Below the pieces are notes generated by a model, which searched no databases, was not told where the DNA came from, and was given only the letters and a program-made list of their open reading frames with translations. Both the position numbers and the translations under genes were made by a program. From Eledone cirrhosa (taxonomy: Eukaryota), in NCBI GenBank assembly GCA_964016885.1, contig OZ024743.1, forward strand, positions 247,070,001-247,134,000: 64,000 nucleotides of DNA, given 5' to 3'. Positions 13,601 through 52,020 of the stretch are shown here, in pieces. Each line of letters opens with the position of its first letter. The first letter of the stretch is position 1.

Positions 13601-13644
13601 TATAGAGTACAGTTAGCAGTAGATATTTAGATAGTATTTATTTA

Positions 13645-13920
13645 TGGTGTCCTTGGCTCCAGGACCACCTCCCTAGTCATCACCAGCGGCATAGAGTTGG
13701 CTACCTGCAGGTGTAAGCCTTGCAAACTGGAATGGCTCTTCCACCGTGTCTCCCTCACTATTCTCCGGGGCAGCGTCTTCTCTATTCTCTATTCTGCCAA
13801 GACTGCGGGGCAGCCAGTGTGTGGGCCCCTATTTGCTTATAATAGTGAAAGATGGGGAGGGCGGGAGAGACAGAGGCAGTGAGAGTGGCAGTTTGGTTCA
13901 GTTGTGTTCGAACCTGGTAT
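13645..13920 (+). mobile_element. CRE-clade retrotransposon 3' fragment
   Basis: Encodes LEWLFHRVSLTILRG followed by the 3' UTR shared with 32400-32520. Confidence 0.75.
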
Positions 13921-21960: not shown

Positions 21961-23321
21961 GGGACCAAGGTTTCGACGGTGACCGGTCCGAAAAGGAAGC
22001 GGCCGGTCAAGCCCCGGTATTTAGTTATCTTCCTCTCCTCTGCGTTGCGGTCAACGGTGGCGGTTTTGCTGCCGAAACGACAAGGCTGGAGGCGGAGAAC
22101 GAGACGCAACACGTCGTGTCCCAGATTAGGGATTTACCTCCTTCGAATGGGAAAGGGGCGCATACCCTCACCATGATCGAGGTCCGCTGGCTCCTTCTGG
22201 TGATACCGTTGAGAGCAGTGTGTCGGCGGCACTGGCGCGTGCTATGGTGGAATGATAGCGGGAGTGTAGAGTCTGTCGCTCCCTCTCCCTTTATTTCGTT
22301 GCTTAATTCCTTTTTTCTTACTCTTTCTTATTTTCCTTTTTTTGTTTCCGTATTGCCATGTATATTGTACTATAAATATATCCTATTTAAAGTATTGTTA
22401 ACTGTTAGCACCCTCTTGTACAAATGTAAGCCTTATGTCTCTGTTAATATTTGTTGCCTAATAATCTGGTTTGGAGATGAATAAAAAGTAGATTCAATTT
22501 ATTTTGTGGTTCGTTCTGCACTTTTTCACTGGAAAATATTTCCCAATATATTTTTACTTGTTTCAGTCAGTAGACTGTGACTATGCTTTGGTACCACATT
22601 GAAGGGATTTGGTCAGTCATATGAACCCAAGTATTTTTTTTTCAAGTCTGGTACTTGTTTTATCGACTTCTTTTGTCGAACCGATAAGTTATAGAGCAGA
22701 AACACATACACATACGCAAAGATAAATAGTGACACACATACAAGGGACTTCCATAAAATTTCCGTCTACCAAATTTCACTCACAAAGCATTGATCAATCC
22801 GAGGCTATATTTGAAGACTTGCCCAAAGTTCTGTGCGAGCTCCTTAACCATAATATGAAGTAAATTTTAAAGAAAGGTTTTTTCCCACATTTCCTCGTGT
22901 ATTCATTTTCAGTTTCAGCTACTCAGATACAGAAAGAGACCGATCGTCAGATCCAACCGCGGAAACTATGTTTCCACTGGTCTTTCCATTGCTTGTACCA
23001 TGTGTCAGTCGCAATTCCTATCAGAAGTGCCTCCACATTTCTGGGATTTAAATTCAGAACACACAGAGACAAGACAGATAGCTTTCCCTCACTACTGAGC
23101 AGCATTCATCCAAAACATCTACAAATGCCCAGATCGCGAAGCTTTCAATATCTTCCATATATTGAACTACAATCGATTTTTCTCACGCATTGCTAAATGG
23201 ATCTTCACTAACTTTGCATACCCTCAATAATGGTAGTTCTGGGAGTAGCATTATACATCCATCTTCCGACTTTACACCACAGGTAAATCTCCTCCAATTC
23301 TGCTGGCCAGGCATAAAAGTA

Positions 23322-26300
23322 AATGCCAATGTAGAAATATAGACGACACATATATATGTACATATATCATCACAGTATACCATATACCCTATCAACATAC
23401 TTAAATATGGAATGTTACGCGATGCCCCCCCCCCCACACACAGCCCCGGCGGACAGGATGGAGAAGGTGTTTCCCCGGAGGACGACAAGGGAGACGCGCT
23501 GGAAAAGCCACTCCAACTCGCGGGGTTCACGCCTGCGGCTGGCCAGCTCAGCGCCTGTGGTGGTGAGTAGAGAGGTAGCCCTAGGGCGGAGGACACCAGA
23601 AGTCTCCACTGCCAAGGTTACAACCGCAAACCTGTCGGAGAGCTACCAGTATTTGAGGAGTTTGGCCTCCTCAGCCCGACGTGCAGCAGAACCTGGGTTT
23701 GTCGCAGACTGCACCAGGTTGCGGCTGCAGAAAGTGTCGGTGCAAGTAGCATCCCAGACGGGGGGTTTGCTACTGCGGAACGGGAAGATGGTCATACCAT
23801 CTGGCCTTTTGCCGTCCCCTCGGTCCAGCCCCACCGGCTCGAGCTGGGAAGGGAAGTCCGCAGCGTCCAAGCCATGCTTTATGACCTCGTTGAGGGTAGC
23901 ATGGCATGGAAGGCGGCTGGCACGGTGGCGACAGGAAAGCGGGTGGAGGCCGAAAGAGTCCACGGTGGATCCGCATCGACATTGGTGTGGCTCGCAGATC
24001 CCCGCGTGAGCCTGCCTGATGCCAGGCTGCAGTGGGTGGCATCCCAAGTGCTTTAGGGGGTCTTGACGTCAACAGGGGGAGAAGGGGGAAGAACGTCTAC
24101 TGGGCTAAGTCTCAGCCGGTCCCACGTCTCACAGGCGGCCTCACGTTCTCAGAAATCAGAGGGTTCTATTGTGTTTTGAAGAACCCTGCTGACGAGGACG
24201 CGGCATGAGGTTACCGACGAAATGATACGCCGGCAAAGCCAGCGAGATTGGGGACCGGAGGCCAAGGCCGCCATATCTGATAGGTAAAGTGGCCTGTTGC
24301 CATCCAATGTCGTCGAACTTGACGTTGCATATCTCCTCGGCTGCTGCTCGGATACAAATATCGAGGTCAGCGAGGAGAGATGTGTGGGTGAAGCAGTTCC
24401 TCAACAGAAAAGAGCTGGGTGGCCGTCGATCAAGCCCAGTTGGCTCGTGAGAGTCTGGAGTTGTTGAAGCCTGGACCTGATGATGGAGCGGATGGCCGGC
24501 GGGTGGATCGGTGACCCGAGGATGAGGACATCCTCTTTGGGGGTCACCTGTACCTGTGGAGAATGGACCGCACGTCCGAGACGGGGGCTGAAAAGCTGAA
24601 AAGCTCTCAGCATCGTTGCTGTCATTCACCACCTCCGACTTGGCCGAGTTGACCTGGAGGCCGATTCCCGCCAGGGCAGGAACCACCGATCAACTTCTTA
24701 CCAGCAATCACTACCACTACCATTAACAAAAGGAAGCCAACTCCAGCATCAGTGACAAGAACAACACCAACAACAACAACACTTATGTTTTCAGGATTGA
24801 ATGACTCACCCCCAGCCACAAGGTCCTATGAGAAACTGCCAACATGTTTGCATGTGTGCGTGCTGAACTCTGGGTCTTTCCGCTGTGAACAACCCCGTTT
24901 TCTCCCCCCCCCCCCCCCACCTGGGGGGGGGGGGTATACATTCATCCATTCACTCATTCATTTGCTAACATTCTACCTTCTTGTGTGTCCACCTCCATGC
25001 ACCCCTTTGTTTTCTCTCTTGTCTTCTGACGCCTCTATATCTGATGTAGGATATGAGGCCCTCTTACCAGCACTTTCCCTTCCACCCACACACGCCAGCC
25101 ACTCACCCCTGATCCCGCTCGGTGTCCCAGTCCCTGGCCCCACGCCCCATCCCCCATCCTCCAAGCCGACACCTGCAGCACTTGCAGCACCACTAATAGA
25201 CGGAAGAGGGGCCGGAACTGTTCGGGTGCGGCTGCTTCCACCACCTCACCTGCGTTGGCTTGATACGTCGAGGTTCCAGTGCCTTCGCAGCGTGGAGATG
25301 CAGGAACTGCCTCTTCCCCGCGTCTGCCCAGCCACGGCCGTCTGGCACACCACCAGATGAGACAGCGAGCTTTCCTGACGCCCAAGCGTCGCTGGTCAAC
25401 ATCGCTCGGCTCCGGAAGATCCCACTCAGGATCCCGAGAGCGGCCCGGGTGCCGGTAGCCGATGCCCTCGCTTCCTCGATTGAGAGCGCACTGGACTCCA
25501 ATCGAGCCAGTGACTGGGAGTGACTCTTTTATTTCGCCCCACTCGCCCTCGGTCTCCCCAGATCTGGCGCTGACCGGGGCAGCCGGTCAACAGCAGCCTT
25601 CGTCAAGGCCAATGTTTCGTCCTTTGGGCAAGCACCCATTCCAAGCGTTCCTAGGGACGCCGCACACCCCACCCTCGGGAACCCCCAATCCTCCACACCT
25701 GAGGCCAGCGCCAAGCGTTTGCGTGACAGCGTAAATGCTAAACTAATCATGGGTGATGTCTCGGCCGCAGTCAGAGTGGTTGCCTCAGAGGACACTGTCC
25801 GCCAACCCACCGAGGAGGTCCTGGCTGCCCTGCGACTCAAGCACCCTGAGCCACCCGCTGATCTCAGACCCATACCCCCACCCGACCCCAACTTGCTCCT
25901 TGTTGATTCCGACTCAGACATCATGTATGCCATCAAGTCCTTCCCAGCTAGCAGCAGCGGAGCTGCTGATGGTCTCCGACCAGGCCACCTCAAGAAGCTG
26001 CTATCCCCCTCTCCTCTGAGGCCGGGCGCCGCCTTCTGAGAGCAATTGTGGAGCTCACCAATAGGCTCATCCATGGCACCCTGGACCCTCACGCCCGAGG
26101 CCTCTTTTTTTCGGCTAGCCTCACCGCTCTCAGGAAGAAAGAGGGTGGCATACGCCCCATCGCTGTGAGCAATGTCTTCCGGAGGCTGGCTGCCAAGGGG
26201 GTCTGCAGGTCCATAACACCCGAACTGGGTGAGGAGTTCAGTCCGGTGCAACTGGGTGTCGGCGTGTCCAGTGGCTGTGAGGGAGCCTCTCATGCAATCA

Positions 26301-26641
26301 GGCAGTTCTTCAACAGCTGCCCACCAGAACCAGCATTCAGGAACTCCAGGCACCTCCTTGTCAAGCTTGACATAAGGAATGCCTTCAACTGCTTACGCCG
26401 GGACCATCTGCTCGATGCCTGCCTCAGCCGAGCCCTCTCTGCCTACCCGCTGGCCTACCTGTCGTATGGAGCCCCGAGCATGCTCCTTGCTTCTGATACG
26501 GTCATACCTTCGGCTACTGGGGTCCAACAGGGCGACTCTTTGGGACCCCTCCTGTTTGCCCTTGGTATAGACCACATCGTCCGGAGTATCACGGCCCCTC
26601 TCAACGTTTGGTATCTGGATGATGCTACGTTGGGCGGGCCC
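23322..26641. mobile_element. CRE-clade non-LTR retrotransposon with inverted 5' half (3' half on -, 24688->23322; 5' half on +, about 24690-24900->26641)
   Basis: RT motifs GIRPIAV, RRLAAK, QLGVG, KLDIRNAFN, GVQQGD and WYLDD on +. ATLPIRYGGLGL, C-x-C...H...C zinc motif and RPDG...WDATCTDT...K..KY...VETSG restriction-like endonuclease on -. TSD ggcataaaagta at 23310-23321 and 26642-26653. Confidence 0.9.
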
Positions 26642-26915
26642 GGCATAAAAGTATCTCCAGGTGTTTCCAACCAACAAAGCCACCGGCTTTGACAATGTTT
26701 TTTTTCCATCACCTCCAAACAATGTGCCCTAGATTTAGCACCTGTACTCACTAAACTCTTTCAGTCTCACCAAACTTTAGAAACACGCTAGAATGTATTC
26801 CATTCTCAAGAAAGGCAACCGCTCTGATTCTGCCAACTATCGCCCTATCCCTCTCGTTCCTGTCTCTAAGGTAATGCAGACAGCCATTAACAAAGACGTT
26901 CACCAGAAACTTGAG

Positions 26916-32394: not shown

Positions 32395-32925
32395 ACACAT
32401 GTACGCCGGGTCCAAATACAGAGGAGCCGAACTCCCACTGTCATCGCCTCCGTCTCTCTCACTCTCCCATCTCTTATTGTTATGAACAAATGGGGTCCCA
32501 CACGCTGGCCGCCCCACGGCCTCGGTGGACAGAATAGAGAAGGCGTTTCCCCGGAGGATGGTAAGGGAGATGTGCTGGATGAGCCATTCCATCTCGCGAG
32601 GCTCACACCTGCGGCTAGCCAGCTCAGTGCTTATGGTGGTGAGTAGAAAGGTAGCCCTAGAGCCAAGGACACTTGGTGGTGAGTAGGAAGGTAGCCCTAG
32701 AGCCAAGGACACTTGGTGGTGAGTAGGAAGGTAGCCCTAGGGCCAAGGACACTTGGTGGTGAGTAGGAAGGTAGCCCTAGGGCCAAGGACACTTGGTGGT
32801 GAGTAGGAAGGTAGCCCTAGAGCCAAGGACACTTGGTGGTGAGTAGGAAGGTAGCCCTAGGGCCAAGGACACTAGAAGACTCCACTGCTAGGGACTCGAC
32901 TGTAAACCTGTCGGAGAGCGACCGA
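32395..32925 (-). mobile_element. CRE-clade 3' fragment containing a 40-bp tandem expansion
   Basis: Encodes ELASRRCEPREMEWLIQHISLTILRGNAFSIL plus the shared 3' UTR. Confidence 0.85.
32634..32873. repeat. Minisatellite, 6 x 40 bp
   Basis: Unit tggtggtgagtaggaaggtagccctagRgccaaggacact. Confidence 0.95.
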
Positions 32926-35869: not shown

Positions 35870-37331
35870 CCACAGCCCCGGCGGAGGACGGCACGGGAGA
35901 CGCGCTGGAAGAGCCATTCCAACTCGCGAGGCTCACACCTGCGGCTGGCCAGCTCAGCGCCTATGGTAGTGAGTAGGGAGGTAGCCCTAGGGCCGAAGAC
36001 ACCAGAAGTCTCCACTGCCAAGGGTACGACCGCAAACCTGTTGGAGAGCGACCGGTACTTGGAGAGCTTGGCCTCCTCAGCCCGACGTGCAGCAGAACCT
36101 GGGTTAGTCGCAGACTGCACCAGGTTGCGGCTGCAGAAAGTGTCGGTGCAAGTGGAATCCCAGACGAGGGGTTTTCCACCGCGGAACGGGAAGATGGTCA
36201 TACCATCTGGCCTTTTTCCGTCCCCTCGGTCCAGCCCCACCGGCTTGAGCTGGAAAGCGAAGCCTGCAGTGTCCAGTGTCCAAGCCATGCTTTATGGTCT
36301 CGTTGGGGGCAGCATGGCGTGGAAGGCGGCCGGCACTGTGGCGACAGGAAAGCTGGTGGAGGTCGAAAGAGTCCACGGTGGATCCACAGCGACATTGGTG
36401 TGGATCGCAGATCTGGAGGCCAAGCCTCAAGGAAACGCCGATGCGCAGGCTATTCTTATCCAGCTGCTTGCCAGTGGAGAAGGAAGGCAAGGCATGGAGC
36501 CAGGCACGACTAAGGTTTCGAGGCCGCACGAAAACATGCAAGGCGGTGCTGCTCGAGCTGGCGCGTGAGCCTGTTTGGGGCCAGGCTGCACTGGATGGCA
36601 TCCCAAGTGCTTTGGGGGGACTTGACGTCAACAGGGGAAGAAGGAGGAGGAACGTATACTGGGCTAAGTCCCAGCCGGTCCCACGTTTCACAGGCGGCCT
36701 CACGTTCCCTGATCACAGAAGGTTCTATTGTGTTTTGGAGAACCCTGCTGACGAGAATGCGGCATGAGGTTACCGACGAAAGAAACGCCAGCAAAGCCAA
36801 GAAGATCGGGGACCGGAGGCCAAGGCCGCCATATCTGACAGGTAAAGTGGCCTGTTGCCATCCAATGTCGTCAAACCTGACGTTGCATATCTCTTCGGCT
36901 GCTGCTCGGATACAAGTATCGAGGTCAACGAGGAGAGATGCGTGGATGTAGCACGGAACGCTGCAAAGGGTATAGAGGAGCTTCGGCATGGCGAAGCAGT
37001 TCCTCAACAGAAAGAGAGCTGGCTGGCCGTCGATCAAGCCCAGTCGGCTTGTGAGGATCTGGAGTTGTTGGAGCCTGGACTTGATGGTGGAGCGGATGGC
37101 CGGCGAGTGGATCGGTGAACCGAGGATGAGGACATCCTCTTTGGGGGTCACCTGTACCTAGTGGAGAATGGACCGCACGTCCGAGACGGAGGCTGCAAAG
37201 CATCGTGGCTGACATTCACCACCTCCGACTTGGACGAGTTGACCTGGACGTCGATTCCCGCCAGGGCAGGAACCACGTATAGTAGGTCATGGCAGACAGT
37301 CTCTAAGGGCCCGCTCAATGTAGCATCATCC
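35870..37331 (-). mobile_element. 5'-truncated CRE-clade retrotransposon (RT C-terminal part + restriction-like endonuclease)
   Basis: Starts at DDATLSGPLETVCHDLLYVVPALAG; includes ORFs 36510-37151 and 35845-36288 (RPDGMTIFPF...KLSKY...LAVETSGVFGP). Confidence 0.9.
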
Positions 37332-40196: not shown

Positions 40197-43100
40197 TTAC
40201 AGATATATACTCAGAGTAGGCCCATTCACTCGGGCCATTCTTGCTTCTCTCACCCATCTTTCAACAAAATGCTGGGAAGAGAGTACTTCCCTCTCTACTC
40301 TGATCTTCCTTTTCAAATGAAATTTGAAAAAGTCAATCAGAGCATCACCGAAGAGGTAAGTGCTCGTCTTCAGCCCTTTCAAACGTGTCCACCATACTAT
40401 CTCTTTCGCCATGGCCACCAGACAGATAAAAACTTCCTGCCCTTCCCGGCTAAAGGAGGAGGGCGGGGCAATCCTCACGATGGACTCAGATGATAGCCGG
40501 ATCCGTCCTACACGCGACAGCAGGTGTTCGACATAAACCCACAAGTCAGCAATTTTCGGACACTGGACGAGTGCGTGCAGGACGGTTTCGTCGCCCTGCG
40601 CGCATCTCGCACATGCCCGGCTGACGGCACCTCCATGCCTGTAGAGTTTATCCCGAACTGGCAAGGCTCTTCGGTAGCACTACCAGGCCAGAGATTTCTG
40701 GAAGTTGTCCATAGGCCCTGGCCCGAAAGTTCTTCCGAAGAGATTGGCTAGTTGATTTTCGTCGACGCCTAGAGTTTCACCAAGTACGTCGTCACTCATC
40801 CCCTCCACTAATCCTCTATAGAACGCCGAGGTGGAGTTTCCACCGATCACATTGCCTGATTGGTCGAGGGCTGTGAGCGCCTGAAGACATTCCAGTCTCC
40901 AGGCGCTCCCTCTCGGTCTTCGCTTGACCCAGGACTGCAGCTCCGTCAAGGAAACGAGCTGGGGAAATACGTGTCTAGCAAACGACGACCACACCTGATC
41001 ACCGTCGAGGAAGAGGTGGAGATGTCGTAGCCTGAGCGCGTGCCTGCGCATCATCAGCCACGGCATGCCCAGCCCTCCACGTAGCGGGTGTTGACAACAG
41101 ATGGACTGCCTGACCATCGGAGCGCGTCCCTTCCACAAAAAGCGAAAGAGCACCGCTTCGTATTCTCTTAGTGTAGTGCCGATCGCCTCGATGTGTTTGG
41201 CGTTCGACACCACTACGGTGACATCGTCCGCATATGCTGACACAGATCTTCCGCATCCTAGTTCGCGCGGGACGCCCCTCAACGTCTCCAGTTTGTGCAG
41301 TAATGGCTCGAGAGTCAATACGTACAAGAGGGACGAGAGGGGACATCCTTGGCGGACCGAGCGCATGATGTTGAACGGTTCCGAAAGGTGACCGTTCACT
41401 CTCCCCACAGAGCAGATGTCGCTGTGCATGGCAGCGATCCAGCCTCTGAAGACGGGCCCAAAGCCAGCCGCCCTCAGGACTGCCGCTAGGTAACGATAGT
41501 CGACCCTATCGAAAGCTTTCGACTGATCTAAATTGATCAAGGACCCACCCGTGCCAGGTTCCCTAGCTACCCTCTCTACGATGTATCGCATGAGGTGGAG
41601 GTTGTCGTGGATGGATCTGTCTGGAATGGCGCATGTCTGCGCCCCTCCCACCAGACCACCAACGACAAGCGCCAACCTCTTTGCTAGCACCTTGGCCAAA
41701 ATCTTGAACTCTGTGTTTAGCAGAGTTATGGGCCTGAAATTATCTATGTTATCCCCCTTGTTCGGATCCTTTCTCAGCAGTGCCACCGTTCCTAGGCTCA
41801 CAGAACTGGGAATTCTTCCGTTCTGTTGCCAGTTGCAGTAGACGTCCGCCAAGAGGCCTCCGAACAAGTCTGGCATCTGTACGTAAAGTTCATAGGGCAG
41901 ACCATCCAAACCAGGCGATTTACCCCTTGTGCAGCCAGTCATTGCCTCCCTTACTTCAGCGGCTGTTATCGGCTTTTCGCAACACTCCGCCTCAGTGGCC
42001 GAGAGCCGCGGCAGTCCGTCGAGGTAGACACTAAAGTCCATCCCTCGACCCGGCCCACCGCTGCCCCCGAACAGCTGAGTGAAGTGTCGCTGAAAAGCTT
42101 CACACATTTGCCCGGGATCGAGTAGCATGCGCCCGTCGTGGTCCACCAAAGACCGGATCGTGGCTTTGTTGCAACGACGCGCTCCGCCACTCGGGCCCAT
42201 TGAACGGCTTTCGTCCCCTCGTGTCTGAGAGCACGCACCCTAGCTCTGACAACGCAGCCTTCGTGCTTTGCATTGAAGAATTGGTCAAGGGCCAATTTCG
42301 CCGCAAGCACGTCAGTCGCAATGCCTTTGCTAAGCGCCTCGTCTAATTTTCTAACTAGTTCTCCCTCTGCTCTATTTTTCTCTATTGCTAAAGCCTTACT
42401 AAACCTAATGGATTCTATTCTAATCGCTCTTTTCAGAGCAAACCACCACTTGTTGTTGACGATGGCCCCCGTTAACGCCCGCTTAACTAGTTCGCTAATC
42501 CGGTCTCTGTAGGCCTTGCGCGCTGGTAAGGACGCGTTTAGCTTCCAGTAGCCGGGTCCTCGTCTATGAAGCCTATCTAAATCAAGCACACAGATCACGA
42601 ATTTGTGGTCCGTGTAGCTGACTATCTTGAATTGTGAACAGCCTATGCTAGACCTATCTATTTCCCTACAAAATACTCTATCTAGATATGATCTGGATGA
42701 CCCTATGCGATTTGTCCAAGTCCACATTGGCACATTCGGGAAATCCAATCGGTACCTGTCAGACAGTTCAAAACGCCTGAGCAGGTTGGTGAGGCTCTTG
42801 CACCCTCCACCCCTATCCGCTAATCCCACACAGTCCCAGCGTGCATCTAAGATCCCGTTCCAGTCGCCCACTAACACTAAAGAGCGGGACGTTCCAAGAA
42901 AGGTCTCCAGACGCCGGAAGAAATCAGGCCGCCCTGCTCCTGTCGGGGCATAGACGGCCACTAGCCTGAAAGCTTGCCCGTCTCCGCTGGTCACGTCCAG
43001 CACCACCAACTTACCCTCTGGGTCCAGGAAGATGGCCCGTATGGCGAGATCCAAACCTCTCCGAAAAAGCACAGCAACTCCTCCCCCCGATCCAGGACGG

Positions 43101-43285
43101 CTGGGAGATGCGTACACATCGTAGCCGCCGAAGATCGGTGCGAAGGCCCGTGCTTCGGAGATTCTGGTCTCGCTGATGGCCACTACATCTATGTTTAGTG
43201 ACCTGAGGTCGTTGAGCAGGTGACCCTGCTTCCATGACGACCCCAAGCCACGCGCATTTATGCTGCCTATTCTGAGTGAGGTCAT
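40197..43285 (-). pseudogene. Tx1-like ORF2 endonuclease/reverse transcriptase, disrupted
   Basis: SINARGL, ISET, GDWN, SYLDR, TDH (APE); LDQSKAFDRV, RQGCPLS, YADD (RT). Frameshift near 42190, stop near 40680, internal deletion at 41150/41151. Confidence 0.9.
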
Positions 43286-43320
43286 GTTTAAAATAGAGTG
43301 GAAAAGATGGGAAAGACCAC

Positions 43321-45319
43321 TTACCGTACTTTTCGTAGAGGAGGGATGGAAAAACCATCCCTTTTCACTTGATCGTCTGGTGAAGGGACCGTTGAATCGT
43401 CCCTTCGGCTGGTCGTCGGCTCTTCTATGAGTATGTCCGAATATACTCTTCGATTGAGAGTCCCTCCTAGGTCTCTGAAATCACCAACTGCGTTGGGGAA
43501 TTTCGTTTTAATGTTTGTGTGTTGTTTCTGTGCTATTTTTAGCAGTCTTATGTTAGTTGGCGTTTTGATTGGTGCTGGTATTATGTAGTCGTGTTGTGAA
43601 ATGTCTGTGTGTTCAATTATGTAAGTCATTAGTTTCTTGTGTGTATTTATTGCCGTGCATTTGTTTTTCTGGGGGTGGGGTGTGGTTCTGCTATTTTCTT
43701 GTCGTTGTTGCTGGGTGTGTGTGTTTTGTTGTTGTGTTTGCGATGTTGGTGCTTGTGGTGGTGGTGTTGAAGGTGCTGTTGTTGTTGGCGGTGGAGTTGT
43801 CGCCGGTGGTGATGGTGGTGCTAGTGTGGGTGGTGATGGTGTTGGTGGTGTTGCTGCTGTGAGTCTCTTTGCAGTAGCCTTTACCCTTTTTTCATTTCTT
43901 TCCTCCCTTTTCGAAGGCGACGATGCGCTGCTTCTGCGTTTGTGCCTTCTTACGACCTTTTGCCATCCCTCTCCCACCTCACACTCCATGTCTGATTCTG
44001 TGAGGTCGGGGAGGGGTACCAGCTCCACTCTTTCACTTGTTGTTGTTGGTGATGTTTGCACTGGAGTCTCTGTTGCAGCTGCATTTGGTATTGCTGTTGT
44101 TGTTGTTGTTAATACTTCCACTGCTGCTGCTGTTTTTGATTTCCGTGGCGTGGGTATGGGTGCCACGGACCTATCGTTCCTGGTTACCGCTTGTCCTGTT
44201 GCTGGTAGCCGTGGAGCCGGTTTCGGAAGGAGTGGGGTTTTCTCCTTTCTCAGGGTCTTCTCGTTGCAGAAGGCCCTGAGGTGAGTCTTCGATCCACAGC
44301 GAAAGCATTTCAGGCGTTTGCCCTCAACACTTATGGGCAGTTGAGTGCCGTTATCGAAGTCTATCACATCCGGGATAGCTTCGATGCACTCCTGGTTGGT
44401 TTGGATTAACATCTCAATGGAGGTGCCGCCCCAATCTTCTCTTACTTTTTTCTGTACTTGCAGTACAGTTGTTTTGTCCTCGATTCCGACGAGGACAGAC
44501 GCGTCCAGCCAAGAAGGGGCCATCCCGGGGGGGGACGTGGGTCAGTTTGACCCTCACAATTGTTTGCCCGCAGTAGGAGGGCACCAACACCATTTCCTCG
44601 CTCCTTAGGGTCACTAAGGATTGAGCCTTTGCCTCCTGGGGTGTGGCAAAAAGTACGTCTGCGGTGGCATATTTCTTGCCTCGGGTGATGTGCGTTTTCC
44701 GCTGCCACACAGACCCCAAGGCTTTTTGTATTTGAGCCTCTGTTGCTCTTTCAACCCTACGGGATTTTGTACTTACTGTACGGTACGTGACCGTACAGTG
44801 CTGTTGGGTTTCGAAAAATTTTTCGGCTGCCTTGCAGATTGCTCGGTGTCCAGTTTTTGTCACCATCTTCTTCGCTTCCTCTAATTCCTCATTTGTTATG
44901 AGGATGGTTTCCAGGTTCTTTGCGATACCTGCAAACGAGATTGGTTTTTCTTTGCTGCTGTTGTTGTTGTTGTTGTTGTCGTCAGAGCTGCTGTTACTTT
45001 TGTTGTTGTTGCAGGTACTACGACTACTGCCGCCGCCGCTGTTGCTGTGGTTGTTGTTGTTGTTGCTGCTGCTAATGCTATTGTTGTTTATGCTGCTGCT
45101 GATGCTGTTGCGGCTGCTACTGTTGTTTTCCTTGTCACTGTTGCTGTTATTACGGCTGCTACTGCTATTATTCCTGACGTCAGACGAATGAAATGGGTTT
45201 TCGTATTTCCCGCACACCTGTTTCATCGTTGTCGTCGTCGTGGAGAAATCTTGCACGCTTTGCACGAGATTTTTCTTTTCTGTCGTCGCTTGCGAAAGAG
45301 AAGGGAGGGAGAGAGACAC
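43321..45319 (-). pseudogene. Tx1-like ORF1 (gag-like, CFRCGSKTHLRAFC knuckle, N/S-rich N-terminus, P/T-rich linker) with one frameshift
   Basis: ORFs 44414-45319 and 43321-44523 overlap at a G/C homopolymer near 44524-44535. Confidence 0.8.
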
Positions 45320-45647
45320 ATTTAAAGAAGGGGGGAGAGAGACAATCTTCTCTCTGCTGTAGTGACGATTGAGGAAGAAGAAGACGGAATGAGTGGGAGT
45401 GACCTATGAAAATTCTTTTTCGTAGCCATGTTGTTGTTTTTTTGTTTAAAATAAATATTGGGCACAAAACCCCAATAAGCGGTTATTTAACCCCGAAGGG
45501 CCAAATAACGGGCAGAAAGACTCCTCTCACGAGGAGGAGGGTGTTTTTGTCTACAATTTGGTTAAAGTTTTAAACAATTTACAATTGTTATAGCAGTCAA
45601 AATTTACAATACCTTACAGAGCCGAGCCTCCGTCAACCATAGCATTC

Positions 45648-47543
45648 AATAATAATAATGATAATGGTTTCTTTATTGGCCACAAGGGCTAACATGAAGA
45701 AAAACATTACAGACGGCACAGGACGATACAAAGTGGGTTTTGGCCGTGTAAAAATGTTATAACAAGACAGAAACGTGTAAAAATAAATTAAAAAATTTTC
45801 AAACAACAAAAATTTCCCCAAAAGGGGGAAACCTCCGAGGGTCACTCGTGGCGAAAACCACACAAAAGACCACGGCCACCCTGACCACCAGGGCAAGCGC
45901 CCTCTCTCAGTTTTCCCACTCCTCAGTCTACAGGCGCATACTCGCCACTTTCACCCACCTTTCAACAAACTTACTAGAAGATAGCACTTGCCTTTCCACC
46001 CTGATTTTCCTCTTCAAGTGAAATTTGAAAAAGTCAATTAGGGATTGGCCGGATAGGAAAGTGTCCGTCTTCAATCCTTTCAACCTTGTCCCCCACACAA
46101 TCTCTTTCAGCATGGCCACCAGGCAGATGAAAATTGCCTGCCCTTCCTCCTCTGGTGAGGCTATCTGCACAATGGACTCAGTCGATAATCGGATCCGTCC
46201 CACACGCGACAGCAACTGTTCGACATAGCTCCATAAGTCAGCAATCCTCGGGCACTGAAACGAGTGCGTGCAGGACGGTTTCGTCGCTCTGCACGCATCT
46301 CGGACAGGCTCGGCTGACAGCACCTCCGTGCCTGTAGAGCTTATCCCGAACCGGCAACGCTCCTCGGTAGCACTGCCAGGCCAGGGCTTTCTGGAAGTTG
46401 TCCATAGGCCCCGGGCTGAAAGTTCTCTTGAAGAGAGCGAACAGCTGATCGTCCTCGACGTCCAGGGTCTCCCCGAGAACGTCGTCGCTCTTCCCCTCCA
46501 CTAACCCTCTATAGCACGCCGAGGTGGATGTTCCACCGATATCAGTGCCCATCTGGTAGAGGGCGGTGAGCGCTTGGAGACATTCCAGCTTCCAAGCGCT
46601 ATCCCTCGGTCCTTTCCTGATCCAGAACTGCAGCTCCGTCAAGGAGACGAGCTGGGGAAAAGTGTGTCTGGCAAACGGCGACCACACCTGTTCACCGTCA
46701 AAGAAACACCAGAGATCTCGCAGCCTCAGCGCATGTTTGCACATCATCAGCCACGGCATGCCCAGTCCTCCACACAACGGGTGCTGACAGCAGATGGATC
46801 ATCTGACCATGGGAGCACGTCCCTTCCACAAAAAGCGGAAGAGAAGGCGCTCCATTTTGGTCAGAGTTGGGCGGGGGCAAGGTACGACGGTCAGGCGGTA
46901 GCAGATGACGGACGCGATGTACGCATTCGCCACCTCCACCGACCTTTCAGACACAGCCACCTCTCGGCCCATTTCTGGGTAAGAGAAGCCACCCTGCTCG
47001 TCACCTCGCTCCAGTTTTTCTCCATCTGGAGGTCTGGACCGAACCAGACCCCGAGCAATTTAACCGTTCCTTCCGTCCAGCGCCCCACTACGCTGTCGGA
47101 CGGCATGGACTTGCCTCTCCAGTGCCGAGTTGCAAGCCCACCGACTTTTCCTGATTTATCTTTGCTCCTCTCACCGCTTCGTATTCCTTGAGAGCGGTGC
47201 TGAGCATCTGGGCGTGTTTGGTGCTCGACACCACCGCGGTGACGTCGTTGGCGTAAGCCGACACGGATCTCCCGCATCCCAGTTCGCGAGGGAGTCCCCT
47301 CATGGTCTCCAATTTGTTCAGTAATGGCTCGAGGGCCAGTACGTACAAGAGGGACGAGAGAGGACAACCCTGGCGGACGAAGCGCATGATGCTGAACGGC
47401 TGCAGCAGATGACCATTCAGCCTCACAATCGAGCAGATGTCACTGTGCTTCGCAGCGATCCAGCTCCTAAAAACGGGCCCGAAGCCGGCCGCCTCGAGGA
47501 CCGCAGCCAGGTACCGATGGGCGACCGTATCAAATGCTTTAGA
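45648..47543 (-). mobile_element. Tx1/L1-clade copy 2, 5'-truncated, diverged from copy 1
   Basis: From KAFD through the C-terminal zinc motif; ends AATAAAGAAACC(ATT)n directly against the 5' end of copy 1. Confidence 0.9.
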
Positions 47544-47775
47544 TTATAATGATTTCTAGTATAGGCACAAGGCCAGTAATTTTTTTTTTTGGGGGGGGGG
47601 GGGGGAGTCGATTAAATCGACACCAGTACGTTACTGGTACTTTATTTTATCAACCCCGTAAGGATGAAAGGCAAAGTTAACCTCGGCAGGATTTGAACTC
47701 AGACCGTAAATGGCCGTAACTCTATGCTAAAAAGCATGGCGTCCGACCCTCTACCGATACTGCCAATCCACCGCC

Positions 47776-47777
<2 letters not shown>
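47544..47777 (-). mobile_element. Complete tRNA-derived SINE between Tx1 copies 2 and 3
   Basis: Sense head GGCGGTGGATTGGCAG...GAGTTCAAATCC; 3' end ggccttgtgcctatactagaaatcattat. Confidence 0.9.
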
Positions 47778-47830
<53 letters not shown>

Positions 47831-48680
47831 TTTCTTTATTAACTACAAGGGTTATCATCAAGAAAAACATTAGGGCTGCACAGGACGAAAACAGTGTATG
47901 TTGGTGTGGCGGGTTTGTGTGTAATCAAATTTAACAATGTTAAAAAAGAAAGATAACAATAAAAATCAAAACGGGATTCCTCAAAAGGGAGGAGACGTTC
48001 GAGGGTCACTCGTGGGAAAAACCCCATAAAATCACGATGCTCTGATCTCTAGAGTAAGTGCCCTGTCCCTGTATTACTCCTCCAATTTACAGGCTCACAT
48101 TCCCAGCAGGTCCATTCACTCGGGCCATGCTCACCTCTCTCGCCTACCTTTCAACAAATTGCTTTGATGGCAGCACTTCACTCTCCACCCTGATTTTTCT
48201 CTTCAAGCACGTCCACCATATAACATATTTTGCCATGACCACAAGACAGATAAAAACAGCCTGATCTTCCTGACTAAGGGAAGGTGGTGGGAAATCTTCA
48301 CAATGGACTCGGCTAATATATGGATTCATCTTACACGCGACAGCAGGTGTTTGACATAAACCCACAAGTCAGAAATGCCTGGACACTGGACAATTGCGTG
48401 CAAGACGGTTTCGTCGCCCAGTGCGCATCTCGGACAGGACCAGTTGACGGCATTTCCATGCCCGTAGAGTTTATTCCGAACTGGCAAAGCATCTCGATAG
48501 CACTGTAAGGCCAGGGATTTCTGAAAATTATCCATGGGCCCTGGACCGAAAGTCCTCTCGAAAAGAGTGGCTAGTTGATTTTCGTTGATGTCTATAGTTT
48601 CCCAAAGAACGTCGTCGCTTTCATCTGCCACTAACCCCGTATAGAACGCCAAGTTGGAGGTTCCACTGATCATACTGCCT
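47778..48680 (-). mobile_element. Tx1/L1-clade copy 3, short degraded 3' fragment
   Basis: GPMDNFQKSLALQCYRDALPVR...CPRC...ETVLHAIVQC; ends AATAAAGAAATC(ATT)n. Confidence 0.88.
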
Positions 48681-49189
48681 CTGTGGCTCTCTCTCTACTT
48701 TTCTCGTTTTCAACCCAATAATACGATATGACACTGCGATCTATCGTGCTTTGAATTGTTTCGACAGAAGTCTTAAGGCTGACAATATGGCCATCTTCAG
48801 AAAAGCTTATTTTCCTGAAAGTTGACTTGATAGCACTAGCAAAAAAAGCTTTGATAGTGCTATTAACTGTTTTGTTCGTTGGTTCGTTGTTGTCGTCGTT
48901 GTTGCTGTTATTCTTGTTGTTTTCACTGATATTGTAGCTGCTGTTATTGTGTTTGCTGTTGGTTTCTTCGTGCTTCTTGTTTTTATTTTCAGGTGATCTT
49001 ATTTATCACTGTTTTCATTGTTGCTGTTTCTATTATTGTCTTTGTTGTCATTGTTGTTGTTGGTATTACTATTAAGCAATATCATTCAAAATTATATTAT
49101 TTTTCATTTTCAAATTCACCTTCATTATACAGACGCTGTCACCTTTCTTCAAATCAAGCGTTGACAACGTCTCCCTCTCTCTATTTTAT

Positions 49190-52020
49190 CGCCCTGGGTA
49201 CATTTCGGACAGGCTAGGCAGATGGCACTTCCATGCCTGTAGAGGTTATCTCGAACTGGAAAAGCTCCCCGGTAGCACTGCTAAACCAGAGATTTACTGA
49301 TGTTATCCATAGGCCCTGGACAGAAAGTCCTGCAGAAAAGATTAGCTAGTTGATTTTCATCGACGCCCAGAATCTCCCCAAGAACATCATCGTTTTTATC
49401 CGCCACTAACCTTATATAGAACGCAAAGGTGGAGTTTCCACCGATTGACTGAGGACTGTGGGCGCTTGAAGATATCCTAATTTCCAAGCGCTCCCTCTCG
49501 GACTTAACTGACTAAGGAATACAGCTCTGTCAATGAGACAAGTTGTACAAATACGTGTGTAGCGGATAAGTGGTATTCTTGATGGGTGTTTGTTGAAAAG
49601 AACAATGCCATGATTGAGTTGTTAACAACGTTTATTTTGTAATAACAATATTCACTTTGAACATCAAGTAATAATATTTATGACATGAATTATCCCTACA
49701 TTGATTACTAGCTACTACGAGCTAGCGTAAATGCATGTTTCACAGAAAACGATATAGTAAAAGTTGTGTTGTATCTTACGGATACAATATGACAGGAAGA
49801 ATAGGGTGAGCGTAGAATGTAAATAATATGAACTTACTATGTGTGTGTGTGTGCCTATTCTTAGAATACATTATTGTCGTAGTGGTAGTGGTCAATCTGT
49901 CAGGCAGGCATGGTTGGCTGTCTGGCTGTGTCTGTGGTCGAGAAGGTGACAACCAGTGAGGGCCAGGAGAGAGATAGAGTGAAAAGTCTGCTACATCGTG
50001 AACCTTAACACGGACAGCTTGCTCCGGTCTCTCTGACTTTTATATTCCTTAACTCCTTGTATTTATAATAGTGCTATAGTTATAAGGGTGTGTATATGAG
50101 GTTGATTTATGATCAGCCATGTGGATATTTTCTCCCAAGAAGCTGTGGTCACAGGTCAACCTGCAACTCAGCGCCTAGAAAGGCAAGTCCATGTCCAACA
50201 GCATCGCCGGGCGCTGGATGGACCAGTTAAATTTCTCTGGGTCTTGTTCGGTCCTGCCCTCCAACTGGACAAAAGCTGGGACGAAGTAATGACCAGGGTG
50301 GCCACTCTCACCCAGACATGGGCTGAGAGAAAACTATTCCTGAAAGGTCGGACAGAGGTTGCGAACACACACATCGTGCCATCTACTGCCAGCTGACCGC
50401 TGTGTCTTGTGATCGACGTCTGACCGCACTGGAGCGTTTATTATCGTTGTCTTTGACAAGACAATGGTGGGAACTTTCAACGATAGATGGTCCCAGAGGC
50501 GAGAAATCTCAGATTCGGTTTCGAATCTTCGCCAGTAAAATATAGGAGTATTCCATTATACGTGCCCAGCAAACGGCGACCACACTTGTTCGCCGTCAAG
50601 GTAAATCTGGAGATGACGTAGTTCGAGCACATGTTCACGCATCATCAGCCTCGACATGCTCAGTCATCCACGCAGCGGGTGTTGGCAGCAAATGAACCGC
50701 CTGACCAGTGAAACCTGTTCCTTCCACAAAAAGCGAAAGAGTAAACGCTCCAGTGCAGTCAGACGTCGATCACAAGACACAGCGGTCAGCTGGCAGTAGA
50801 TGGCACGATGTGTGTGTTCGCAACCTCTGTCCGACCTTTCAGGAATAGTTTTCTCTCAGCCCATGTCTGGGTGAGAGTGGCCACCCTGGTCATTACTTCT
50901 TCCCAGCTTTTGTCCAGTTGGAGGGCAGGACCGAACAAGACCCCTAGAAATTTAATTGGTCCATCCAGCGCCCGGCGACGCTGTTGAACATGGACTTGCC
51001 TTTCTAGGCGCTGAGTTGCAGGTCCACCGACTTGATTAATTTTTTCTCCTGTTATCACTTCATACATTTGCTGCTTGACACCCCAACGGTGACATCGTCG
51101 GCGTATGTTGACACAGATATTCCTACCGCCTAGTTCACGCGGGATGCCCCTCAATGTCTCCAATTTGTGTATTAGTGGCTTGAAAGTCAATAAATACAAT
51201 AGAGATAATAGAGGACAACCTTGGCGGACCGAACACATGGTGTTGATCAATTCCGTGAGATGGCCGGTCACTCTGACCTCAGAGCAGATATCGCTTTGCC
51301 TTGCAGCGATACATCCTCTAAAATTCTGGTCTCGCTGATGGCCATCACATCTATGATCAGTGACCTGAGGTCGTTGAGCAGGTGGCCCTACGTCCATGAC
51401 GACCCCAGGCCACATGCATTTATACTGCCTATTCTGAGTAAGGCCATATTAGATAAAGAGTATGGGTAAAGGGTTACCTATTCGTGTGGAAGAAGGGATA
51501 GTAATTCCTTTCCCTAGCCAGTTGTAGGCAGACACCTCCACAAGAATGTCAATGTATATCCTTTTAGATATCGTTCCTCGGAAATCCCCAATTGCACTAG
51601 GGAAAATTTCTTTAGGGTGTGATTATTTTTATGTTTGCGGGCAGTGCGATATTTTGGGTGTGGGGTGGGGTGGGTGGGGTGGGGTGGGGGATAATCTATT
51701 TTTCCTTCTGTAATGTTGATGTGCTGTATGTGGCGAATTACATTTCTGTTGTCTGTATTTACATTTCTGTATGAAACGTGTGAAATTATTGTTTACGTTT
51801 GTTGTTGTTTGTGCGGGTACTAGATGGATTGTAGATGTTGGTGTCTGTGGTGTTGATGGTGGTGAGCTTTGTGTAGGTGTTGGCATTTGTTGCCTCACCG
51901 TTTTGGCATTTTTCTTTTCCCCACTTTCGTCCTCTCATTTCTTTTCTTTTCTTGGGGGTGGGGTGGACAAGACGGAGTTTTCTTTTTTTTTTTTTTGTTC
52001 TTGTGGCTGCAAGTTATATT
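49190..52020 (-). mobile_element. Tx1/L1-clade copy 4, rearranged (ORF1 tail, EN start fused to mid-RT, LTR-like insertion)
   Basis: NAIGDFR..ISKRIY (ORF1 end, near 51560); RIGSINACGL...ISETRI joined to FRGCIAA...RQGCPL near 51320; GPMDNI near 49310. Confidence 0.8.
49558..50560 (-). mobile_element. Probable solo LTR inserted in Tx1 copy 4
   Basis: The Tx1 sequence is interrupted and resumes across duplicated (ata)cgtg. Ends tgtagcgga...tccattata form an imperfect TG..CA-type inverted pair. TATA-like motif (about 50040) and AATAAA (about 49631) on the minus strand. Confidence 0.5.

What the first reader, a model, noticed from the sequence alone, without database searches (positions are those of the whole stretch)
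23310..26653. CRE-clade retrotransposon with a TSD-bounded 5' inversion: twin-priming architecture in a restriction-like-endonuclease element
Seen: the 5' half runs on + and stops at WYLDDATLGGP (26641). The 3' half runs on - and starts at VVPALAG (24688). The collinear copy at 35870-37331 shows these two points are only about 30 nt apart in the intact element (GP-LETVCHDLLY-VVPALAG). The block is flanked by a perfect direct repeat ggcataaaagta (23310-23321, 26642-26653), extendable to ggcc(a/c)ggcataaaagta, where ggcc is shared with the element. Removing the insert restores one old CR1-like LINE. Established: TSD-[inverted 5' part]-[sense 3' part]-TSD with a small junction deletion is the signature of twin priming in mammalian L1. 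Inference: the same mechanism acted in a CRE element, where I am not aware of it being described. It implies a staggered second-strand cut made before reverse transcription finished. The 3' end has no poly(A).
Basis: partly seen in the sequence, partly recalled or inferred. Interest (0 to 1): 0.75.

Follow-up and report, generated by a model that had tools for sequence, protein, structure and literature searches.

The report
Twin-primed inversions in CRE-type retrotransposons
This dead jumping-gene copy has its front 2 kb flipped between two identical 12-base target repeats; seven more copies of the family are flipped the same way, so both cut DNA ends likely copied one RNA, a trick known mainly from mammalian LINE-1.

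Summary
The structure is real: a 12-nt direct repeat (23310-21, 26642-53) bounds a CRE-like retrotransposon whose 5' 1.95 kb is inverted, with 28 nt missing at the flip. Both halves belong to one subfamily and are equally old. Short-read contigs carry both outer junctions; none was seen across the inner one (inconclusive). It is not a one-off: 8 of 257 family copies examined (7 of 256 without this one) have the same 5'-terminal inversion, all with twin-priming polarity and none with snap-back polarity. Qualifications: the family normally leaves no long target duplication (10 nt or more in 3 of 132 collinear copies), microhomology at the priming site is 1 nt, 73 nt of unknown origin precede the 3' repeat, and no empty allele was found. 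Best reading: insertion-time twin priming at an unusually wide staggered break (0.7); who cut the second strand is open. My searches found no report of this in CRE or other natural RLE elements. The scan noted similar flips before in RTE copies of other genomes and in Penelope-like elements of this genome. New variant of a known process; moderate interest.

The parts
23310..23321 (.). Target-site duplication, copy at the element's 3' end
   Evidence: inside one unbroken short-read contig 22768-23424
23322..23394 (-). 73-nt non-family tail between the element's 3' end and the duplication; likely read-through flank of an unsampled source copy or a captured piece
   Evidence: one 30-of-33-nt look-alike elsewhere, with no element beside it
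23395..24688 (-). Sense 3' part: end of RT region, CCHC knuckle, RLE, short 3' tail without poly(A); two internal deletions (45 and about 150 nt)
23640..23981 (-). CCHC knuckle and restriction-like endonuclease motifs (RH..LN, RPDG, WDAT)
   Evidence: same motifs in the 930-aa frame of L008
24689..24690 (.). Inner (inversion) junction, 2-nt microhomology AT
   Evidence: not bridged by short-read contigs at 99% likeness
24689..26641 (+). Inverted 5' part: truncated leader, PHD-like finger, RT up to WYLDDATLGGP
25174..25310 (+). PHD-like finger, broken by a 1-nt frameshift in this copy
25973..26641 (+). Reverse transcriptase (Pfam RVT_1, E 1.9e-9)
26642..26653 (.). Target-site duplication, copy abutting the inverted part; first base also fits the element (1-nt microhomology)
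   Evidence: short-read contig 26613-26900
23140..23321 (+). Left piece of the old host LINE
   Evidence: profile match E 1.4e-4, profile positions 427-655
26654..26915 (+). Right piece of the old host LINE
   Evidence: profile positions 685-972

Best explanation
This is one dead insertion of an abundant CRE-like retrotransposon whose 5' part is inverted between 12-nt target repeats, likely because both ends of a staggered DNA break primed reverse transcription of the same RNA (twin priming). Shown: the structure, the 28-nt gap, one subfamily and one age for both halves, and seven more copies with the same polarity. Inferred: (1) the bottom-strand end primed near the RNA's unfixed 3' end and made about 1.5 kb of cDNA; (2) the top strand was already cut 12 nt away, and its 3' overhang primed inside the RT coding region on about 1 nt of pairing and copied about 1.95 kb towards the 5' end; (3) the two cDNA ends were joined on 2 nt of microhomology. 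The family usually joins nearly blunt and primes with no poly(A), so its RT likely accepts almost any 3' end; a wide stagger is occasional and may favour, but is not needed for, inversion.
For: Repeat flush with the outer breakpoint. Halves 95.7% and 96.0% identical to the subfamily-1 majority. Seven more 5'-terminal inversions: L010, L182, L185, L210 (38, 39), L303, L316, L320 (64, 65). In all 8 the inverted piece comes from upstream of the sense start (7 deletions of 12-2025 nt, one 63-nt overlap), as described for L1 (10.1101/2024.08.27.596794, passages). Breakpoints lie within 190 nt in 5 of 8 (p 0.0008 for two independent RNAs; 4 of 7 without this copy, p 0.004). Eight inversions are 5'-terminal, one is internal (L212), and none was seen carrying host flank inside. 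L010 has an 11-nt flush duplication; L303 an 18-nt one offset by 38 nt. Both outer junctions are in short-read contigs at single-copy depth.
Against: Five of 8 inverted copies show no duplication. The link between inversion and long duplication is weak without this copy: 1 of 7 flush vs 3 of 132, p 0.19; 2 of 7 counting L303, p 0.02. Outer microhomology is 1 nt, no more than chance. No contig crossed the inner junction at 99% likeness (depth 0 at 24692-24695; the tool warns that holes prove nothing). No empty allele. L212 and L230 show that other inversion types occur in the family. The 73-nt tail has no traced source.
Confidence: 0.7

Rival explanations
1. A collinear copy inserted first; its 5' part was inverted in place later by break repair.
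For: Gives the same small junction deletion and short microhomologies; L212 (internal inversion plus deletion) and L230 show that such rearrangements exist; copies carry many internal deletions.
Against: One break would have to fall within 1 nt of the duplication's edge here, and within a few nt in L010. Terminal inversions outnumber internal ones 8 to 1, and none was seen with host DNA inside.
Confidence: 0.13
2. Two RNAs of the same subfamily were primed, one from each end of one break, and the two cDNAs were joined.
For: Three of 8 gaps are over 1 kb (L316, L210, L303); five lack a duplication; subfamily identity cannot tell one RNA from two sisters.
Against: Gaps are small in 5 of 8 and never a large overlap (p 0.005; 0.01 without this copy). 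For this copy the gap is 28 nt.
Confidence: 0.08
3. Snap-back or template switching: the cDNA end folded onto its own product, as described for R2 transgene insertions.
For: Antisense pieces at R2 5' junctions are documented (PMC11371274, passages); L303 carries an extra switched piece.
Against: Snap-back recopies sequence already in the cDNA. Here the inverted 1.95 kb is absent from the sense part; 0 of 8 copies are inverted duplications of the sense part.
Confidence: 0.05
4. Assembly artefact.
For: Inner junction not seen in contigs of runs X1-X3.
Against: Each unique flank is joined to element sequence of opposite orientation in short-read contigs of three runs (one sample, possibly the assembled one); the flanks share a 12-nt repeat and one host LINE.
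Confidence: 0.04

Closest known systems
5'-inverted (twin-primed) mammalian L1 insertions (Ostertag and Kazazian 2001, not held; seen through PMC2912911, PMC4245944 and 10.1101/2024.08.27.596794, passages)
   Same: Duplication - inverted 5' part - sense 3' part - duplication; junction deletions more common than duplications; short microhomologies; 10-20-nt duplications on some inverted copies.
   Different: RLE instead of APE endonuclease; no poly(A); long duplications rare in the family; about 3% of sampled copies; several gaps over 1 kb.
CRE clade (SLACS, CZAR, CRE1/2; MoTeR/FoTeR endonuclease motif) (PMC12278014, PMC12857005, PMC4640811, passages)
   Same: RT followed by CCHC knuckle and PD-(D/E)XK-type RLE; one long frame (930 aa in L008); a 45%-identical relative is auto-named 'SLACS protein'. 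CRE types are reported from cephalopods (PMC10294476, passage).
   Different: Dispersed, no fixed target; no poly(A); N-terminal PHD-like finger; duplication usually absent.
R2 snap-back 5' junctions in engineered insertions (PMC11371274, passages)
   Same: RLE element, antisense element sequence next to the upstream target.
   Different: Snap-back recopies existing cDNA; here the inverted part is sequence that the first cDNA never reached.
Nimb-2_DR single 5' inversion in DT40 cells (PMC4245944, passages)
   Same: A non-L1 element with a roughly 12-nt duplication peak gave an inversion.
   Different: Not an RLE element (recalled: I-group, APE); one cultured-cell event, against eight natural copies here.

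Membership tests
Twin-primed 5' inversion | Inverted part derives from upstream of the sense start, its 5'-most end at the inner junction | tested here: met
   same in 7 more copies
Twin-primed 5' inversion | Target-site duplication flush with the inverted part | tested here: met
   12 nt here; flush in 2 of 8 inverted copies, offset in 1, absent in 5
Twin-primed 5' inversion | Small deletion or duplication and microhomology at the inner junction | tested here: met
   28-nt gap, 2-nt AT
Twin-primed 5' inversion | Complementarity of the top-strand end to the RNA at the internal priming site | tested here: inconclusive
   1 nt flush; GGCC lies beyond a mismatch that carries the element's base
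Twin-primed 5' inversion | Both halves from one RNA | tested here: inconclusive
   same subfamily and age; gap statistics favour one RNA; source copy not identified
Twin-primed 5' inversion | Empty allele with a single target copy | tested here: inconclusive
   no skip joint in X1-X4; X4 does not cover the flanks
CRE clade | RT plus C-terminal CCHC and RLE motif (pattern in PMC12857005) | tested here: met
   L008: CRC-x9-H-x3-C, RHAALN, RPDG, VWDAT; RH followed by A/T rather than D/N, and x9 rather than x7-8
CRE clade | Single ORF with N-terminal zinc-finger-like motif | tested here: met
   930-aa frame; PHD-like finger, one spacing in 46 of 54 copies, open in the example translated; Pfam PHD below cut-off
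CRE clade | RT phylogeny groups with SLACS/CZAR/CRE1/2 | not tested
   no reference sequences in hand; only an automatic name on P0024 and weak R2/L1 matches, E 9e-5 or worse
CRE clade | Site-specific insertion, poly(A) tail, routine TSD (trypanosomatid members) | tested here: not met
   unrelated flanks and variable tails; duplication of 10 nt or more in 3 of 132

The most novel reading that the evidence does not exclude
An ancient-type RLE retrotransposon family twin-primes as a regular by-product of insertion: its RT primes from any 3' end at any RNA position, the second target strand is opened before the first cDNA is finished, and wide staggers switch the outcome from truncation to inversion. 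Twin priming would then be a general property of target-primed reverse transcription, not an L1 speciality, and some inverted copies go on to found sub-lineages.
Probability: 0.4. Interest if true: 0.65.

Novelty: new variant of a known kind. Interest (0 to 1): 0.45.

Why it matters
The timing of the second-strand cut is an open point for RLE elements: R2 models put it after cDNA synthesis (PMC6895275, passages), and a 2026 paper names nick timing as something still to be tuned (PMC13486585, passages). 5' inversions have been called nearly exclusive to L1 in human cells (PMC4245944, PMC2912911, passages). A natural RLE family with thousands of copies and about 3% inverted ones gives a countable data set for when the second end becomes free and whether overhang length decides the outcome. 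It changes a detail of mechanism, not the class of element, and the copy itself is dead.

Tried and rejected
Source of the 73-nt tail: DNA search (28 matches) and pattern search found no element copy with it. Tail as host DNA: pairwise scores favoured it in 4 of 9 relatives, the empty site in 1, equal in 4 (no control); with equal-length flanks the empty site won in 2 of 3 and a profile called 58 of the 73 nt an insertion; up to about 30 nt stay unresolved. GGCC as priming microhomology: rejected as direct evidence. Long TSD as a family trait: rejected. False inversion flags from a SINE inside one leader reference were discarded by eye. L206, L207 and L240 share one inherited inverted leader piece and were not counted as events. 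RAD-seq runs X4 and X5 do not cover the flanks or the inner junction. A majority-column reading gave no long frame because of reference indels; single copies were used instead. PMC2718515, PMC5389967 and PMC6007223 mention twin priming only in reference lists; PMC7367193 and PMC9977147 passages held nothing on it. No supplements were read; Repbase reports are not in the library and may describe such copies.

Full report
Observation. The 12-mer GGCATAAAAGTA stands only at 23310 and 26642 in the window. From flank composition a given 12-mer has p 4.9e-8, or 2e-4 over 400 positions and 10 offsets. Between the copies lie, on the minus strand, a sense 3' part (24688 to 23395) and, on the plus strand, a 5' part (24689-26641) that ends inside the RT at WYLDDATLGGP (Pfam RVT_1 E 1.9e-9). 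Read on the element's sense strand: duplication, inverted 5' part, sense 3' part, 73-nt tail, duplication. The window's second copy overlaps the 5' half by only 25 nt, but all 24 collinear genome copies listed have 28 nt between the two breakpoints. The first of these equals the duplication's first base and the last two (AT) equal the end of the inverted part, so 25-28 nt are lost. The inverted part is 5'-truncated: L015 and L019 continue upstream.

The family. The genome is 3.0 Gb; first looks gave 4188 candidates for the 3' end, 1660 for the RT and 755 for the 5' region. Named relatives include Octopus sinensis proteins at 42-50% identity, so the host is likely an octopod (inference). L008 holds a 930-aa frame with RT, CCHC knuckle and RH..LN / RPDG / WDAT motifs, close to the SLACS/CRE endonuclease pattern in PMC12857005 (passages). 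One relative at 45% is auto-named SLACS protein; R2 and L1 structures match weakly. No RT tree was made, so 'CRE' rests on architecture and that name. A PHD-like finger opens the frame, as earlier scan notes said for other copies. CRE types in cephalopods are in print (PMC10294476, passage).

One element or two. Forty long copies split into two subfamilies (21 and 19) with 127 strong diagnostic sites. The 5' half has the subfamily-1 state at 83 of 90 sites (subfamily 2 at 5), the 3' half at 25 of 25; identities to the subfamily-1 majority are 95.7% and 96.0%.

Assembly. Short-read contigs of three runs of one sample, possibly the assembled one, run unbroken over 22768-23424 and 26613-26900 at matching single-copy depth (15.4/14.4, 9.6/7.8, 4.5/4.9). 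The right contig has 29 element bases, below the tool's 31 for a bridge. The two flanks thus meet element sequence of opposite orientation, which requires an inversion inside. No joint skipping the element was listed. At 99% likeness no contig crossed the inner junction, and depth was 0 at 24692-24695; a filter or a one-base difference can cause this, so it is inconclusive, and it is the one result that does not fit cleanly.

Host site. The right flank matches 12 old repeat copies at 68-81%. Left plus right flank aligned better than with shuffled left flanks in 2 of 3 relatives (1 of 300, 0 of 300, 17%). A profile places the left flank at 427-655 (E 1.4e-4) and the right at 685-972. An uncontrolled first test was mixed. 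One old LINE is likely; 'CR1-like' is recalled from motifs, untested. The 73-nt tail matches no family tail among the 27 other loci; one 30-of-33-nt look-alike lies elsewhere with no element beside it.

Recurrence. I held 373 loci, 274 distinct places, 261 with the element: top hits of nine element queries, biased to long, well-kept copies. Four lacked the 5' junction; 246 were collinear and 11 had opposite-strand pieces. Eight of the 11 are 5'-terminal inversions: this copy, L010 (63-nt overlap), L320 (gap 12), L185 (141), L182 (189), L316 (1212), L210 (1563), L303 (2025). The other three are L212 (internal), L230 (3'-terminal scrap) and L240 (array with an inherited inverted leader). Without this copy the rate is 7 of 256 (95% interval 1.1-5.6%); 0 of 63 places found by 3'-end queries and 7 of 197 others (p 0.2). 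Inverted pieces under about 28 nt or from unknown leaders would be missed. In all eight the inverted piece lies upstream of the sense start, with its 5'-most end at the inner junction. Inner microhomologies are 0-4 nt.

Target signature. Of 133 collinear copies with both ends, 4 have a flush repeat of 10 nt or more (18, 16, 10, 10); I dropped the 16 (L072, an internal tandem), leaving 3 of 132, one doubtful; controls gave 0 of 532. Among 139 copies, 6 sit in repeats that let the site be rebuilt: four show 1-3 nt overlap, one 1 or 9, one is unclear. The family thus joins mostly near-blunt. Inverted copies have flush duplications in 2 of 8 (12 and 11 nt), an offset 18-nt one in L303, and none in five. 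Enrichment: p 0.026 with this copy, 0.19 without, 0.02 without it but counting L303. Suggestive only, though it is the direction reported for L1, where inverted inserts carry 10-20-nt duplications and a 5-nt overhang was thought too short to prime (PMC4245944, passages).

Mechanism. Snap-back, known from R2 insertions (PMC11371274, passages), recopies cDNA already made and predicts an inverted duplication: 0 of 8. Two independent RNAs predict broad, symmetric gaps; observed are 5 of 8 within 190 nt and no large overlap (p 0.0008 and 0.005; 0.004 and 0.01 without this copy; uniform-breakpoint model). Later inversion predicts mostly internal or flank-carrying inversions; observed are 8 terminal, 1 internal, none seen with flank, and here a break within 1 nt of the duplication. 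Twin priming fits all of this, including deletions outnumbering duplications as in L1 (10.1101/2024.08.27.596794, passages; PMC2912911, passages). The priming steps are inferred. Whether the RLE made the 12-nt stagger or the RT used an existing staggered break is open, since wide staggers are rare in this family.

Novelty. Nine full-text searches and passages of 15 papers showed no report of twin-primed inversions in CRE or any natural RLE element. PMC6895275 mentions twin priming only for L1; PMC4245944 found one non-L1 case. The original twin-priming paper was not held; subscription journals, Repbase reports and supplements were not seen. Inverted 5' copies of Penelope-like elements are known (recalled; listing of PMC8557442 only). 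Scan notes report single RTE cases in other genomes and Penelope-like cases in this one, unchecked by me.

Verdict. Observation confirmed; interpretation supported and widened from one copy to a recurring minority class. New variant of a known kind, interest 0.45.

Noticed in passing
family 3' ends, e.g. L008, L022, L023, L031, L044, L046, L053-L078: No poly(A) and no fixed 3' end: copies fall into nested groups that share different tails and stop at different points, as if each source copy is read through into its own flank and primed at variable positions.
   Followed up: partly
L206:4570-5400, L207:5250-5690, L240: Three places share a 384-nt leader holding an inverted piece of another subfamily's leader: a rearranged source copy appears to have propagated. 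L240 is a tandem array of about 1.57-kb units of it.
   Followed up: partly
family leaders, L201, L015, L200, L183: At least three unrelated 5' leaders, up to more than 1 kb and holding other repeats, precede the same body; suggests transcription from upstream host sequence.
   Followed up: partly
158 truncated copies: 5' truncation points cluster mildly: 37 pairs within 2 nt against 23 expected after jitter, p 0.005; six copies at reference 2249-2254. L124, L129, L316 and this copy break within a few nt of reference 2329. Query choice may contribute.
   Followed up: partly
L212:3871-6125: Internal inversion of about 470 nt with a 930-nt deletion; later rearrangement or twin priming into an older copy.
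   Followed up: partly
L230:5256-5298: Copy lacking its 3' end and closed by a 43-nt inverted piece from just downstream.
   Followed up: no
window 32515-32923 and 13640-13790: Two short 3' fragments of related elements; the first carries a 40-nt tandem array made from element sequence. Four family members in 64 kb.
   Followed up: no
window 50154-50440 / 50742-51028: 287-nt inverted repeat, 97% complementary, 301 nt apart.
   Followed up: no
window 40567-51322: Three to four diverged copies (72-83%) of several 200-300-nt segments, with threonine-rich-looking repeats at 43700-45200; possibly a tandem gene family.
   Followed up: no
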